Positions 8,203 to 55,155 of a stretch of DNA of 64,000 nt are shown here, piece by piece. The notes under the pieces are model-generated. The model was given only the letters and a program-made list of their open reading frames with translations. It ran no database searches and was not told where the DNA came from. This DNA comes from the human T2T-CHM13v2.0 reference genome, Homo sapiens, in the NCBI RefSeq assembly GCF_009914755.1, contig NC_060928.1. One strand, given 5' to 3'. Position 1 is the stretch's first letter. Each line of letters opens with the position of its first letter. The position numbers and the translations under genes are program-made.

Positions 8203-8502
8203 GCCGGGCGCGGTGGCTCACGCCTGTAATCCCAGCACTGTGGGAGGCTGAGGCAGGTGGATCACCTGAGGTCAGGAGTTCGAGACCAGCCTGGCCAACG
8301 TGGTGAAACCCTGTCTCTACTAAAAATACAAAAGTCAGCCAGGCATGGATGTGCATGCCCGTAGTGCCAGCTACTGGGGAGGCAGAATTACTCGAACCTG
8401 GGAGGCGGAGGTTGCAGTGAGCCGAGATCTTGCCACTGCACTCTAGCCTGGTGGACAGAGCGAGACTCTGTCTCAAACAAACAAAAACAAAACAAAACAA
8501 AA
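8203..8502 (+). mobile_element. AluS
   Basis: Full dimer, (CAAAA)n tail, TSD cacaggtaca on both sides. Confidence 0.95.
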
Positions 8503-10948: not shown

Positions 10949-12440
10949 TTAAGAAACTCAAAGCCTAGCAGAGGAAAACAGCTTTAAATACCTGAACAGG
11001 TTCCAAGGACAGAGATAGAAAAAACAGTCTATCTTAATGATGGCTCCAAGTTATGGATAAAAGCAGTGTAGTGTAAATAAGCAGAAGAGAATGGGTGGTT
11101 CACCTTGCAAATACTTCTAATCCCCAAACCAAGCAAGTGACTTCTAGACTATGTTCACTTCAGACTAGTCATATCATTGCTCTACTTTAAAAACAATACG
11201 AAGAAATGATTGTACTCAAAACCTGTATTATATTAAGCAGCAAGCCACCAGTAAAAAGATCTTCCGGTCAGACCCTTGTAGCACTACTTAAGGAAAAGGA
11301 AGACCAGGAGTGCAGGAAAGTCCTCTTCCATGTCTGTTTTCTTGTCAACATTAAACCAGAATGAAAAATAATTAGACCCACCTTGTCCACGCAGGTGTGT
11401 AACTTCCTAAACTTAGGATGAAAATCACAATCTTAGAACCATGCACCTATCAAGGACATCAACCAAGCTTTACATATCCAAGCTCCCCTGGCACCCAGCT
11501 CAGGAAAAATAGCATCAAGGTTGAGGGAGCACTTAGCTAAGCAGAGTGGAATGCCAGCTCTGCAGATAAACAGCCATGTGACCTGGGGCCTCAGTTCTTC
11601 TGAAATAAGGAAATAATACAATCTACCCCAGATATCACAACTTAACTGTAAGGTTCAGTTCTAAGAGTTCCTGCAAATTATTATATAAGTTGTTACTGAC
11701 TGCTTTCTTTCCTTCCACCATGTTGATCATTTTTCCTACTGTCTTCAGTCTGCCTTACTGCTGCTTGTTTAAAACAGTGACTGTCCAAGAGCCACCTGTA
11801 CTGTTTAAAAGTTAGCTATACCAAAAGACACCAACTATTACATTTCTCCATGGTAATAAAACAAAAACGGGAAAATTTGCATCTCAAAAACTCTCCTCAC
11901 CCTGACAAGCGACATAACTTTACCAAAGACGACATGAGTAGATCCTGATCAGTTACACATCACTTCAGGGAGAAACCGCTAAAGCAGCCGACACTTTTTG
12001 TAGAAAATCCTACATGTTTCTCTAAGGTTATTAAAATATTTCTGGAGAGGCAAGGAAAGCATACTCAGACATTTAACACTTAAGACAATACCTTAAAAGT
12101 TATCCATTCAGCCCTCCTTAAGTGTAAAAAGGGAAATAATAAGAAAAAAGAAAATGAGTTGTAAGCTGTATTTCATTAATATAATCTTGGGAAACAGTGA
12201 TTCAACAAAACACCCAAATATAAAACTTTAAAATTTTTTAAGTAAATATCTTACAAAAAAGTCTTCAGCATGTTTTTGTGTAAGCAGAACTGAGACAGTA
12301 CACTAAAAAGCAAATAATCTAAAATAATAACATACTCGTTATCACAAATCAGTCAGAGATGAAATTCTAATCATTTCTTTTATAATCTACTGCACAAGTT
12401 TTATCTATCTTCCTTAAAAATCAATGTATTTCCCTTCTTA

Positions 12441-28550: not shown

Positions 28551-28712
28551 TACAATTGGTGCTTTATCCCCTGATTATAAACATAAACAACTTTGAAAAA
28601 GATTGGCAATTTCTATTTTAAATGCTCGTCAGGAGTTTTTCAAAAGTACCTCTGGGTTTCTAATATAAGTTGTCACGGATAATAAATCAAAGTGGGACAA
28701 AGAAACATCTTA

Positions 28713-28943
<231 letters not shown>

Positions 28944-31658
28944 TCACAGATAGAGGAACAAGGCCTAGCTAGGTCAGTTCACAGAGCATAGGGCAGGGCA
29001 GGATGGCCTCCAACTGCATCTTGGATTGTTTACTACCTTGATTTGGTACATCAACACCTAACCACATCTGTAAGACAAGAGGGTTTCAAAGCTACAGAGT
29101 ACCTGATTATTTTAACTAGATCTAAAAGTAGGCATCAAAACAGCTATTCTGAAGGCCATCAGGATACTAAAAAGCTCAACTTATTTAAAAAAACCAGTGC
29201 TGATAGCTCTACCAATAACCAGAATAACGGTGTCAATTGCCTTTTAGCTAACTGTAATTTTTCAAAAGGGCATCCACTAAATCTACTGAATGGCTGTGAA
29301 AGTTAGGAAGCTATGCTTGCCCACTGCAGAGCTAACAACAACTTTGAAACCAGTCTACTGCCATGTTTCTATCAGAATTTTTTCCCTAATACTGTGGCTA
29401 TTACCAACTGGTGGGTATCACTATTAGCACCGGTGAGCAGAAGCATATGTAAACATAAAAATATCAAGAATTCTTGGGTTTGGATGATAGCAGTAGTGGT
29501 GGAAGGTTAAACCGCCTTTGAATTAAGAAAATTCAAAAAGGCTGGGATATTCAGCCTAGTGTTTCAGCATTTTAACAAAAGGATTAGAAAATAAAGTCCC
29601 AAATTTAAAAAAGAAAAAAAACAAACTTATTTGAATCAAAACCTCAATATAAAAGCAAAGTCCAATATTTCAAAAGTTGACAATTAGTCTGAAACAATCA
29701 TATCAAGGGTCATCAAGATATGTAACTACAGTTATTTGTTTAGAGCCTCAATATTAATTCACATAAAACTTTAAATTGTTACAAAGCATGTACTACATTT
29801 TTTGAAATACAACTTTCCTTAATTCAGTTTAGCAATTCCATAGTCATAAAAGCAGTATGAAAATAAAAATACTTAACAGCTTGGGACTTTTTCAACACAT
29901 TTTAAAAGCTCTTAAAACCTTGTCAATGAAAAAATTCATAAATTATCGGTTCGGATAGAAGATAATGGGAATAATCAACAACAAGATAAAATACAGTATC
30001 ATATTACTCTTTCCCATACAGTTTCCCCTTTAAAAAGATGCCAAAATAGCCAAATAGTGACAACAAAACATGATCATAATAAATATTAAAACTCTTGCTT
30101 AATTTAATTGAAGCAAGGTAATTCATAAAAGCACACAAACTTCTCACAGCTGTGAATTTTAATGTGAACTAGCCACTAGAGTTAAGTGGGAATAAATAAG
30201 TAGTGCTCTCAAAGGCCTCTAGATTTGCACTGTTAGTATCAGGACCTCAAAACTTCAAAAACTATTTTAATGTCAAACAAAGCATTACAAGCTCAGCAAA
30301 CTATTTTTTATTCCCTGACTTCTTACTTGCCTCTTATTTCAACACTTTTCCTATAAATGGACCATTTAAAAACAGTCCATTTACATTGCTGCACATAAAT
30401 GCTCATTCTCCTGACAAACTAAAGGTTTTTATTTGTGATAAATAAAAATAAGTTTTTTTTAATTACAAATAAAACTGAGATGTAGTTGGAAGATTACAAC
30501 TACATCACAACAACAAACTTCTTAAAGAGCTAATATTCTAAACTCAAACAACAGTAATCATGTAAGTATATCTGATAAGAGAACCTAGAGAAATAAAAAC
30601 TAGGCAGATAGACAAGTAAGTACACAATCCATTAGTTCTTGCCCCACACTTTCTCTAAAAACTAAAATCTTGGGAGAAGTACAACTGGGAGAATCTATAA
30701 AACAACATATAAGAAAGGCAGACAACAACCTACCACCACCTCCGCAAATGAAGCTACAATTTAATTAAAGTGACTCAATACTGCCCTGCCCATCTGCTCT
30801 GAGTCTGATCAGTCATAACTCTGCAAGAAAACATTTTAGCTACTTCTTAAATAAAAAATTCACACCATTAGAATATACCATACGTCTAAACTAAGCCATA
30901 ATTTTACATTTAAATTTTTTTCAATTTATCCTTTAATTCCACAGAATATTTTGAAATATTTGCAGCATTAAGTTCAATAAACCACTCAGCAATAGGGAGT
31001 CAGTTCTCTCCCGTGCTAAAACTAGTAGCAGAGAATATTTTAATCGTCAGTAAGAACTTATTTTCTATTTTTAGCTGTAAGAATAGCTATTCATTTGTTT
31101 CTTAACAATATTTCTTCTCCTTTAGGGAAAATCTAATTTCCAAGTTACTATTCATTTGTGGATTACATTTTATTGTTACTAAAAACAGCATTATTTCCTT
31201 AGCTTAATGGTCCAATTTTACAAAATTAGCGATTTTATATATTAGGTATGTTTCTTTTACCAAGTTTTTCTACCATTGTAAAAGAATACCATTATCAGAT
31301 TAGATTTTAAGCCTAAAATTATACATTACTATTTCTATTTACTTGATATGAAGTTTGAAATTCATGTTTGTTCGGGTGCCATTGGAGTACATATATAGAA
31401 AAGGCTCAACTTAATGTATAGCTTTCAGTTTGTCACAGGCACACTTAATAGAGCTAAGTACTAGAGCAAAGTTCTTCCTGTACTTGCAGTAAAAAACAAA
31501 AAACAAAAAAACCACAAAGATAGCAGTGATGGACCTTTAACCAAAGAATTCAGTTACAACTGTGCTCAAACTTACTGCAATTTTTATTAGCACTCAAGAG
31601 AGCCAATGCTTTACTTATCTTTTGTGCACAATGACTTACTTTACTTTTGTAAGCACTA

Positions 31659-32102
<444 letters not shown>

Positions 32103-54300: not shown

Positions 54301-54886
54301 GGTTCTATACCACACTCTTAACTAGCCTCCATGTAACTCATAAATCCTTGGGATAGCCATACACTTTATAAAACATAGTGTAATATACACATAATCCTGT
54401 CTCCATCAGTTGGGTCAAGAGAATTACAGTTGACATGAAATGATAAACCCCAAGCATAGAAAAGAGTCATATATATGAACACCAAGTCATATGTTTCAGA
54501 AGTTTAGAACAAGATGAATCTTTCACACACACAGAACTATCAAATCTGTGAGACAATTCTGAAAGATTTAAAAGAGCCTAGAAACCAAGCATTCCAAAAG
54601 ATTGAACTGTCTTAAATTCCAGAAAAACAACTTGTGTATTTTCTAAATGTTTGAGTTTAAATTCCAGCTTTAGAATTAAATGGAATTCCAAACAAATGAA
54701 CCCATACTCAACAAAATGGTGTTGATTAATGTTAACAATAAATGAACCTATAGGTCTTATATTTAAATGTCCAGGTATAATTTTTCTATTTACAACTGAT
54801 CTTTCAGGTTTATCTTTATATACATATAAAGAAATATATATAATCTATATATAAGAAATACATATATATGTATGTATATATTTTAA

Positions 54887-55155
54887 AGAGACAAGGCCTT
54901 GCTATGTTGCCCAGGCTGGAAGGCAGTGGCTACTCACAGATACAATCCCACCACTGATCAGCTTTGACCTGCTCATTTTCCAACCTGGGCCGGTTCACAC
55001 CTCCTGGGGCAACCTGATAGTCCCCCGCTCTCCAAGGAGTTACCATATGGATGCCAAACTAGCACACTACATCCCGGAACTCTTGGACTCATGCAATCCT
55101 CCTTCCTCAGCCTCCCAAAGTATTGGGATTACAGGCATAAGCCACTGCACCTGGA
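54887..55155 (-). pseudogene. 7SL (SRP) RNA retro-pseudogene in DHX15 intron 3
   Basis: Alu-like ends plus retained S domain (tttgacctgctcattttccaacctgggccggttcacacctcctggggcaacctgatagtcccccgctc), the reverse complement of the 7SL core; diverged. Confidence 0.88.

What the first reader, a model, noticed from the sequence alone, without database searches (positions are those of the whole stretch)
29037..29067. Candidate 31-nt poison cassette exon (or upstream alternative acceptor) before exon 11
Seen on the minus strand: acceptor CCCTCTTGTCTTACAG|ATG at 29068/29067, with a better pyrimidine tract than exon 11's own, and a moderate donor AAG|GTAGTA at 29037/29036. Spliced after exon 10 (phase 1) it reads GAT GTG GTT AGG TGT TGA, a stop at 29051-29053 that lies well upstream of several junctions, so NMD is expected. 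The same stop applies if the acceptor is used without the donor (179-nt extension of exon 11). The donor is only ~62 nt from the putative distal branch point, near the steric minimum, so the two may compete.
Basis: partly seen in the sequence, partly recalled or inferred. Interest (0 to 1): 0.7.

Follow-up and report, generated by a model that had tools for sequence, protein, structure and literature searches.

The report
Known upstream acceptor, unproven DHX15 mini-exon
The splice signals are really there, but the upstream acceptor is already an annotated alternative start of DHX15 exon 11 that yields a stop-containing, probably degraded transcript, and nothing shows that the proposed 31-base cassette exon is used.

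Summary
The acceptor is ccctcttgtcttacag|ATG, with first exon base 29067. The donor is AAG|gtagta, with last exon base 29037. The length is 31 nt. Exon 10 ends in phase 1, and the reading is D-V-V-R-C-stop, with TGA at 29053-29051.

The hub's RefSeq table lists an alternative DHX15 exon 28766-29067. So the "acceptor without the donor" form, a 179-nt extension of exon 11, is already annotated. No exon 29037-29067 is listed.

The motifs alone are not above chance. In 42,452 intronic nt of this gene, 46 other acceptor/donor pairs score at least as well, and only 1 of them is a real exon. A stop or frameshift is what any intronic insert is expected to give.

The donor is not hopeless. It pairs with U1 in a bulged register at -7.5 kcal/mol and is the best of 15 GT sites in the extension.

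Eight full-text searches, two of them for other purposes, and six supplement searches found no report of a DHX15 unproductive isoform. Conservation could not be tested.

Verdict: an ordinary, already annotated unproductive alternative 3' splice site. The cassette and any autoregulation remain speculative. Low interest.

The parts
29068..29090 (-). Alternative upstream 3' splice site of DHX15 exon 11: tttgaaaccctcttgtcttacAG. The AG lies at 29069-29068 and the first exon base is 29067.
   Evidence: The sequence was read. The hub's RefSeq table lists exon 28766-29067. The PWM score is 2.00 against -1.38 for exon 11's own site, and the site ranks 11th or 12th (tied) among 188 AG sites in intron 10. 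The nearest upstream AG is only 24 nt away (29093-29092). The only branch-point-like motif inside that zone is TTGAA, with its A at 29086.
29037..29067 (-). The proposed 31-nt cassette, which is also the first 31 nt of the annotated 179-nt extension of exon 11.
   Evidence: The length is 31 nt, so it shifts the frame by one. Read after exon 10 it gives DVVRC*. No exon with these bounds appears in the hub's table.
29051..29053 (-). In-frame TGA (premature stop), shared by the cassette form and the extension form.
   Evidence: The stop lies 285 nt upstream of the exon 11/12 junction in the extension form and 137 nt upstream in the cassette form.
29028..29039 (-). Candidate 5' splice site AAG|GTAGTAAA. 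The last exon base is 29037.
   Evidence: The PWM score is 0.11, at the low end of the annotated donors, which range from -0.43 to 6.0. The U1 duplex energy is -7.5 kcal/mol, with one bulged U1 base; annotated donors range from -5.6 to -10.5. It is the best of 15 GT sites in the extension. No annotation shows that it is used.
28889..29036 (-). The remainder of the annotated extension. This stretch would be the 148-nt intron if the cassette donor were used. It holds exon 11's 75-nt AG-free zone and branch-point-like motifs: CTCAT (A at 28932), GTGAC (A at 28936) and CTGAC (A at 28974).
28766..28888 (-). Constitutive DHX15 exon 11, with a weak acceptor: ccataccaaccttgtttag|TCC.
   Evidence: and the hub's table.
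28881..28890 (-). A pair of acceptors 8 nt apart, ttAG|TCCCACAG|TG. The downstream one (first exon base 28880) is also an annotated alternative. It shifts the frame to a TGA at 28842-28840.
   Evidence: The hub's table lists exon 28766-28880. The translation is and the sequence.
31823..32014 (-). DHX15 exon 10. It ends in phase 1 and encodes residues 533-595 of the 795-residue protein.

Best explanation
The AG at 29069-29068 is a genuine alternative upstream 3' splice site of DHX15 exon 11, and it is already annotated. When it is chosen in place of the weak constitutive site at 28889/28888, exon 11 grows from 123 to 302 nt. The reading frame then meets TGA 15 nt into the extension.

Such an mRNA meets the position rule for nonsense-mediated decay. 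If translated, it would give a roughly 600-residue helicase that is cut inside the ratchet-like domain and lacks the OB fold.

This is most likely a low-level unproductive by-product, favoured by exon 11's poor acceptor and distant branch points, and not an evolved switch. The 31-nt cassette would arise only if the GTAGTA donor at 29037/29036 were also used, removing a 148-nt intron from the extended exon. That is possible as a minor form but is not shown.

Shown here: the sequence, the frame, the stop, the annotation of the boundary, and the domain consequences. Inferred: decay by NMD, low abundance, and lack of regulation.
For: The PWM scores the upstream acceptor (2.00) above exon 11's own (-1.38). 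Exon 11 has a 75-nt AG-free zone with branch-point motifs at -44, -48 and -86.

The stop lies 285 nt before the next junction. Exon 10 encodes residues 533-595 of 795. It covers the HA2 winged helix plus only profile positions 1-30 of 77 of the ratchet domain. The OB fold lies in exon 13.

For the noise reading, Fair et al. 2024 (PMC11387194, passages) estimate that about 2.3% of splicing events are unproductive, with more at weak sites. In this gene, decoy pairs of equal quality are common: 46 others, of which 1 is real.

No DHX15 RNA-level event appears in the held supplements of six studies of NMD or unproductive splicing.
Against: I saw no read-level or junction data. The hub's table gives only exon bounds, so a transcript that starts at 29067 is not formally excluded.

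The upstream acceptor lacks a consensus branch point inside its short 24-nt AG-free zone, so its use may be rare or dependent on context.

The donor at 29037 is better than its PWM score suggests. Its U1 duplex energy is -7.5 kcal/mol. Only 53 of 2783 GT sites in the gene span and 3 of 191 in intron 10 are as good. The cassette therefore cannot be dismissed.

Absence from supplements is weak evidence. Several files were cut or unreadable, and those tables list only significant events.
Confidence: 0.7

Rival explanations
1. A true 31-nt poison cassette exon. Both the acceptor at 29067 and the donor at 29037 are used, and the exon is included between exons 10 and 11. Its stop sends the mRNA to NMD as a regulated way of lowering DHX15 output.
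For: Both sites exist. The donor forms 8 base pairs with the U1 5' end in a bulged register, at -7.5 kcal/mol, which is within the range of the gene's real donors. It is the best of 15 GT sites in the extension. The 148-nt downstream intron has usable branch-point motifs. The stop and the NMD position rule hold.
Against: No exon 29037-29067 appears in the hub's RefSeq table, although two other exon 11 variants do. A 31-nt internal exon with a non-consensus donor (PWM 0.11) is poorly suited to exon definition; that is established knowledge which I recall. It contains a UAGG-type silencer-like motif; that motif identity is also recalled and was not tested. Forty-six other pairs of equal quality lie in the same gene, 45 of them unannotated. 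No paper or supplement mentions it.
Confidence: 0.12
2. An autoregulatory loop. DHX15 rejects spliceosomes on suboptimal introns, and it would set its own level by shifting intron 10 splicing between the weak productive site and the unproductive sites at 29067 and 28880.
For: Feng et al. (bioRxiv 10.1101/2022.11.14.516533, abstract and section 7) report that DHX15-repressed introns have weak splice sites and multiple, distal branch points. They also report that depletion raises alternative and cryptic site use. Intron 10 has those features: a weak acceptor, branch-point motifs at -44, -48 and -86, and two annotated frame-breaking alternative acceptors (hub's table).
Against: No data link DHX15 dosage to these junctions, and the sign of the feedback is unclear. 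Dhx15+/- mice show significantly reduced Dhx15 mRNA in several organs as well as phenotypes (PMC8519955, passages). That argues against tight dosage compensation. The search DHX15 + NMD + autoregulat found 16 papers; the 15 listed titles and abstract starts show none about DHX15's own transcript.
Confidence: 0.07
3. The annotated boundary at 29067 is not a splice acceptor. It is instead the 5' end of a partial or internally initiated transcript model, or a model artefact, and the motif match is a coincidence.
For: The hub's table gives exon bounds only. It does not say which upstream exon the variant exon is joined to.
Against: The boundary falls exactly after a CAG that is preceded by a pyrimidine run. 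The sister variant 28766-28880 also begins exactly after a CAG.
Confidence: 0.05

Closest known systems
Alternative 3' splice site coupled to nonsense-mediated decay (AS-NMD, 'poison 3' splice site')
   Same: An upstream AG extends a coding exon and brings in an in-frame stop more than 50-55 nt before a downstream junction. The boundary is annotated in the hub's table.
   Different: Neither NMD sensitivity nor any regulation has been shown for this event. I found no published description.
Poison cassette exons of splicing regulators (SR proteins, hnRNPs), as described in Pervouchine et al. 2019 (PMC6547761, passages)
   Same: The host gene is a splicing factor, the insert carries an early stop, and the insert lies between constitutive coding exons.
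   Different: Classic poison exons are annotated cassettes that respond to NMD block, and many are highly conserved; the conservation point is recalled. Here the cassette form is unannotated, only 31 nt long and has a non-consensus donor. Its conservation could not be tested. DHX15 occurs 0 times in that paper's main text and held supplement.
Intronic pseudoexons and noisy unproductive splicing (Fair et al. 2024, PMC11387194, passages)
   Same: The site strengths are ordinary, there are many equivalent decoys in the same gene, it lies near a weak constitutive site, and the outcome breaks the frame.
   Different: Unlike most decoys, its acceptor has reached a reference annotation, so at least some transcripts use it.
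Exons with distant branch points and long AG exclusion zones (a class I recall from the literature; I read no paper on it)
   Same: Exon 11 has a 75-nt AG-free zone, and its branch-point motifs lie at -44 or further.
   Different: The branch points here are motif predictions only and have not been mapped.

Membership tests
Poison cassette exon | Both splice sites are used, so that the exon is included between the flanking exons | tested here: not met
   The hub's RefSeq table lists exons 28766-29067 and 28766-28880 but no exon 29037-29067. Junction databases and GENCODE could not be consulted.
Poison cassette exon | Inclusion brings in an in-frame premature stop or a frameshift | tested here: met
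   the reading is DVVRC*, with TGA at 29053-29051. In addition, 31 nt is not a multiple of 3.
Poison cassette exon | The stop lies more than 50-55 nt upstream of a downstream exon junction | tested here: met
   137 nt to the exon 11/12 junction, with two further junctions beyond it.
Poison cassette exon | The isoform rises when NMD is blocked | not testable with these tools
   No read data were available. DHX15 has no RNA-level entry in the held supplements searched. In one search only proteomics rows matched, and some files were cut or unreadable.
Poison cassette exon | Conservation or regulated inclusion | not testable with these tools
   Only the human genome is held, so no other vertebrate sequence was available.
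Alternative 3' splice site NMD isoform | An AG preceded by a pyrimidine tract and a usable branch point | tested here: inconclusive
   The AG and the tract are present. The only branch-point-like motif inside the 24-nt AG-free zone is the non-consensus TTGAA at -19.
Alternative 3' splice site NMD isoform | The exon boundary is supported by transcript evidence | tested here: met
   The hub's RefSeq table lists exon 28766-29067. I could not see the underlying record.
Alternative 3' splice site NMD isoform | A premature stop in an NMD-competent position | tested here: met
   the same TGA, 285 nt before the next junction.
Autoregulatory unproductive splicing | The gene's own product changes the ratio of unproductive to productive isoforms | not testable with these tools
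   Supplements of the DHX15-degron preprint are closed. Reduced mRNA in Dhx15+/- mice argues weakly against tight feedback.

The most novel reading that the evidence does not exclude
DHX15 intron 10 is itself one of the 'suboptimal' introns that DHX15 polices. It has a weak acceptor, distant and multiple branch points, and two frame-breaking alternative acceptors (29067 and 28880), with an optional 31-nt mini-exon. On this reading the helicase would tune its own mRNA level through NMD-coupled splice-site choice. That would be a feedback loop for a spliceosome proofreading factor, and none of my searches found such a loop in print.
Probability: 0.07. Interest if true: 0.55.

Novelty: already known. 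Interest (0 to 1): 0.15.

Why it matters
As it stands it matters little. It adds one more unproductive isoform of a housekeeping gene, and its key boundary is already in RefSeq.

It would matter only if the isoform proved to be dosage-sensitive. DHX15 is the helicase that discards spliceosomes assembled on weak sites. A self-limiting loop through its own weak intron would therefore link splicing fidelity to DHX15 abundance, and it would give a handle for raising or lowering DHX15 with antisense oligonucleotides.

Tried and rejected
1. Literature. I ran eight full-text searches. Five asked directly about DHX15's own isoforms: DHX15 with 'poison exon', with nonsense-mediated + cryptic 3, with 'unproductive splicing', with NMD + autoregulat, and with 'exon 11'. 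One located the DHX15/SUGP1 degron work. One tried to find the poison-exon screen paper. One located the heterozygous-mouse papers. By listing, none is about an unproductive DHX15 isoform. The 'exon 11' hits that I opened concern ENOSF1 or DHX15 expression only.

2. Supplements. I searched them for 'DHX15' in six papers. Karousis 2021 gave 0 occurrences. Pervouchine 2019 gave 0. Mironov 2023 gave 0 in 3.7 million characters. Boehm 2021 gave only proteomics rows, with one file cut and one unreadable. Fair 2024 gave 0, with one file unreadable. Neumann 2020 gave 0, with one file unreadable.

3. Papers not held. Saltzman 2008 and Thomas 2020 are not in the library, so their lists of spliceosomal AS-NMD events and conserved poison exons remain unseen. 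bioRxiv supplements, including the DHX15-degron event tables, are closed.

4. Earlier findings of this scan were not open.

5. Repeat origin. The 612 nt at 28889-29500 have no other copy in the window apart from one 20-nt chance match. The 232 nt at 28889-29120 match only themselves in the whole genome. So this is not a young repeat. Ancient repeats cannot be excluded.

6. Processed pseudogenes as fossils of an alternative isoform. There are none. Exon 11 matches only itself. Exon 10 matches itself plus a paralog-like stretch at 74% identity on contig 10.

7. Local RNA folding of 29130-28871 gave an unremarkable structure. I ran no shuffle control and draw no conclusion from it.

8. U12-type or recursive splicing. 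The donor has no U12 consensus. The AG|GT at 29103/29102 lacks a pyrimidine tract. Both judgements were made by eye.

Full report
THE OBSERVATION

I read the minus strand at 28700-29300 and 31760-32060. I rebuilt the DHX15 reading frame from the twelve annotated coding exons in the window. One frame is open to the terminal stop.

- Exon 10 (31823-32014) ends ..ATG TTG TCA G|gt, which is phase 1.
- The proposed acceptor reads tttgaaaccctcttgtcttacAG|ATG, with the AG at 29069-29068 and the first exon base at 29067.
- The proposed donor reads AAG|GTAGTA, with the last exon base at 29037.
- The piece between them is 31 nt.
- Joined to exon 10 it reads G|AT GTG GTT AGG TGT TGA, that is D V V R C stop, with TGA at 29053-29051.
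- The same stop is met if the acceptor is used without the donor, which extends exon 11 by 179 nt.

WHAT THE ANNOTATION ADDS

So the 'upstream alternative acceptor' form is already annotated.

The second begins 8 nt inside exon 11, after cccacAG. It shifts the frame to a TGA at 28842-28840.

No exon 29037-29067 is listed. I could not open the RefSeq records themselves, so I infer that 29067 is joined to exon 10 from the perfect acceptor context. I did not see that join.

IS IT MORE THAN CHANCE?

As motifs, it is not.

- The acceptor scores 2.00. Exon 11's own scores -1.38, and annotated acceptors range from -7.05 to 6.02.
- The donor scores 0.11. Annotated donors range from -0.43 to 6.00.
- In the gene span 19189-64000, 193 of 2894 AG sites and 259 of 2781 GT sites score at least as well.
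- They form 244 pairs spaced 25-250 nt.

A PWM undervalues this donor, so I also folded each candidate against the 5' end of U1. AAG|GUAGUA forms eight pairs with one bulged U1 base, at -7.5 kcal/mol. That is inside the range of the gene's eleven real donors, -5.6 to -10.5. Only 53 of 2783 GT sites in the gene span are as good. In intron 10 the figure is 3 of 191, one of which is exon 10's own donor. It is also the best of the 15 GT sites inside the 179-nt extension.

Even with this kinder measure, 46 other pairs (acceptor at or above 2.0, donor at or below -7.5, spacing 25-250 nt) lie in 42,452 intronic nt. Only 1 of the 46 is an annotated exon. The candidate itself dropped out of the list through rounding.

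The 'poison' property is also the default for such inserts. A 31-nt insert shifts the frame whatever it contains. Ten random codons hold a stop with probability about 0.38.

ANATOMY OF THE SPLICE SITES

Exon 11's constitutive acceptor (ccataccaaccttgtttAG|T) is weak. It sits at the end of a 75-nt zone free of AG. The yUnAy-type motifs lie far away: CTCAT (A at 28932, -44), GTGAC (-48) and CTGAC (A at 28974, -86).

The upstream acceptor has longer pyrimidine runs, although its pyrimidine count at -20..-4 is 11/17 against 12/17. It also has CAG rather than TAG. However, another AG lies only 24 nt upstream (29093-29092). The sole branch-point-like motif in between is the non-consensus TTGAA (A at 29086, -19).

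So it is better in its tract and poorer in its branch site. That fits a site used now and then.

As I recall, the minimum distance from donor to branch point is about 45-50 nt. The nearer motifs would also leave 100 nt or more.

CONSEQUENCE FOR THE PRODUCT

Exon 10 encodes residues 533-595 of the 795-residue DHX15 seen in spliceosome structures. Pfam places the HA2 winged helix and only positions 1-30 of 77 of the ratchet-like HA2_C profile in exon 10. It places the OB fold in exon 13.

A translated product would therefore be about 600 residues. It would be cut within the ratchet domain and would lack the OB fold. As I recall, that region binds G-patch activators.

The stop lies 285 nt before the next exon junction in the extension form and 137 nt before it in the cassette form, with further junctions downstream. 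So the usual position rule for NMD is met. Decay itself is inferred.

ORIGIN

The intronic stretch has no second copy in the window or in the whole T2T genome, so it is not a young repeat.

I looked for processed pseudogenes that might have fossilised an alternative isoform. Exon 11 matches only itself. Exon 10 matches itself and one stretch of 74% identity on contig 10, presumably a paralogous helicase gene.

No other vertebrate genome is held, so conservation could not be tested. That is the main gap in this report.

LITERATURE

Five full-text searches combined DHX15 with terms for poison exons, NMD, unproductive splicing, autoregulation and exon 11. By their listings, they returned no paper about an unproductive DHX15 isoform. 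The two 'exon 11' hits I opened concern other matters.

'DHX15' has no RNA-level entry in the held supplements of six studies of NMD or unproductive splicing. Some files were cut or unreadable, and such tables list only significant events.

Two relevant papers, Saltzman 2008 and Thomas 2020, are not held. bioRxiv supplements are closed.

For context:
- Fair et al. 2024 (passages) estimate that about 2.3% of splicing events are unproductive, with more at weak sites and in long introns.
- Feng et al. (abstract and section 7) report that DHX15 represses introns with weak sites and multiple or distal branch points. They also report that its depletion raises cryptic and alternative site use.
- Dhx15+/- mice have significantly reduced Dhx15 mRNA in several organs (passages). 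That speaks against tight dosage compensation.

READING

The best-supported account (0.7) is as follows. The acceptor at 29067 is an annotated alternative upstream 3' splice site. It competes with a weak constitutive site and yields a stop-bearing, probably NMD-degraded transcript at a low level.

The rivals are:
- a genuinely used and regulated 31-nt poison cassette (0.12);
- DHX15 autoregulation through its own suboptimal intron (0.07);
- a boundary that is not an acceptor at all (0.05).

The cassette remains possible because the donor pairs decently with U1, but nothing shows that it is used.

VERDICT

The kind is already known, and interest is low (0.15).

The only reading that would lift the interest is a feedback loop for a splicing proofreading helicase. 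That loop is testable with existing DHX15-degron RNA-seq.

Noticed in passing
window 28880-28890 (minus strand): There is a second annotated alternative acceptor 8 nt inside exon 11 (ttAG|TCCCACAG|TG; the hub's table lists exon 28766-28880). It shifts the frame to a TGA at 28842-28840, 74 nt before the exon 11 donor. Exon 11 therefore has three annotated acceptors, and two of them break the frame.
   Followed up: partly
window 28889-28965 (minus strand): A 75-nt zone free of AG lies upstream of exon 11. Its branch-point-like motifs lie only at -44, -48 and, just outside the zone, -86. This layout suggests a distant branch point. It resembles the features that Feng et al. report for DHX15-repressed introns.
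   Followed up: partly
window 29097-29110 (minus strand): An AG|GT juxtaposition (aatcAG|GTactc) lies 35 nt upstream of the alternative acceptor. Its GT pairs with U1 at -7.1 kcal/mol. It looks like a recursive splice site but has no pyrimidine tract.
   Followed up: no
window 28932-28938 (minus strand): The heptamer TGACTCA overlaps the branch-point candidates. I recall it as the AP-1/TRE consensus. It is probably a chance match.
   Followed up: no
window 8203-8319 (+): There is an Rfam Metazoa_SRP match of 73.6 bits against a gathering score of 70. It is not in the hub's gene table. It is only 117 nt long, so it is probably a 7SL/Alu-derived fragment. The annotated mir-573 (11896-11975, minus strand) and the 7SL pseudogene (54886-55155, minus strand) were both recovered in the same call.
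   Followed up: no
L003 (G000 contig 10, 126724292-126724408, minus strand): This is the only other genomic match to DHX15 exon 10: 74% identity over 117 nt. It is presumably the homologous exon of a paralogous DEAH-box helicase gene. No DHX15 processed pseudogene carrying exons 10 or 11 was found.
   Followed up: no
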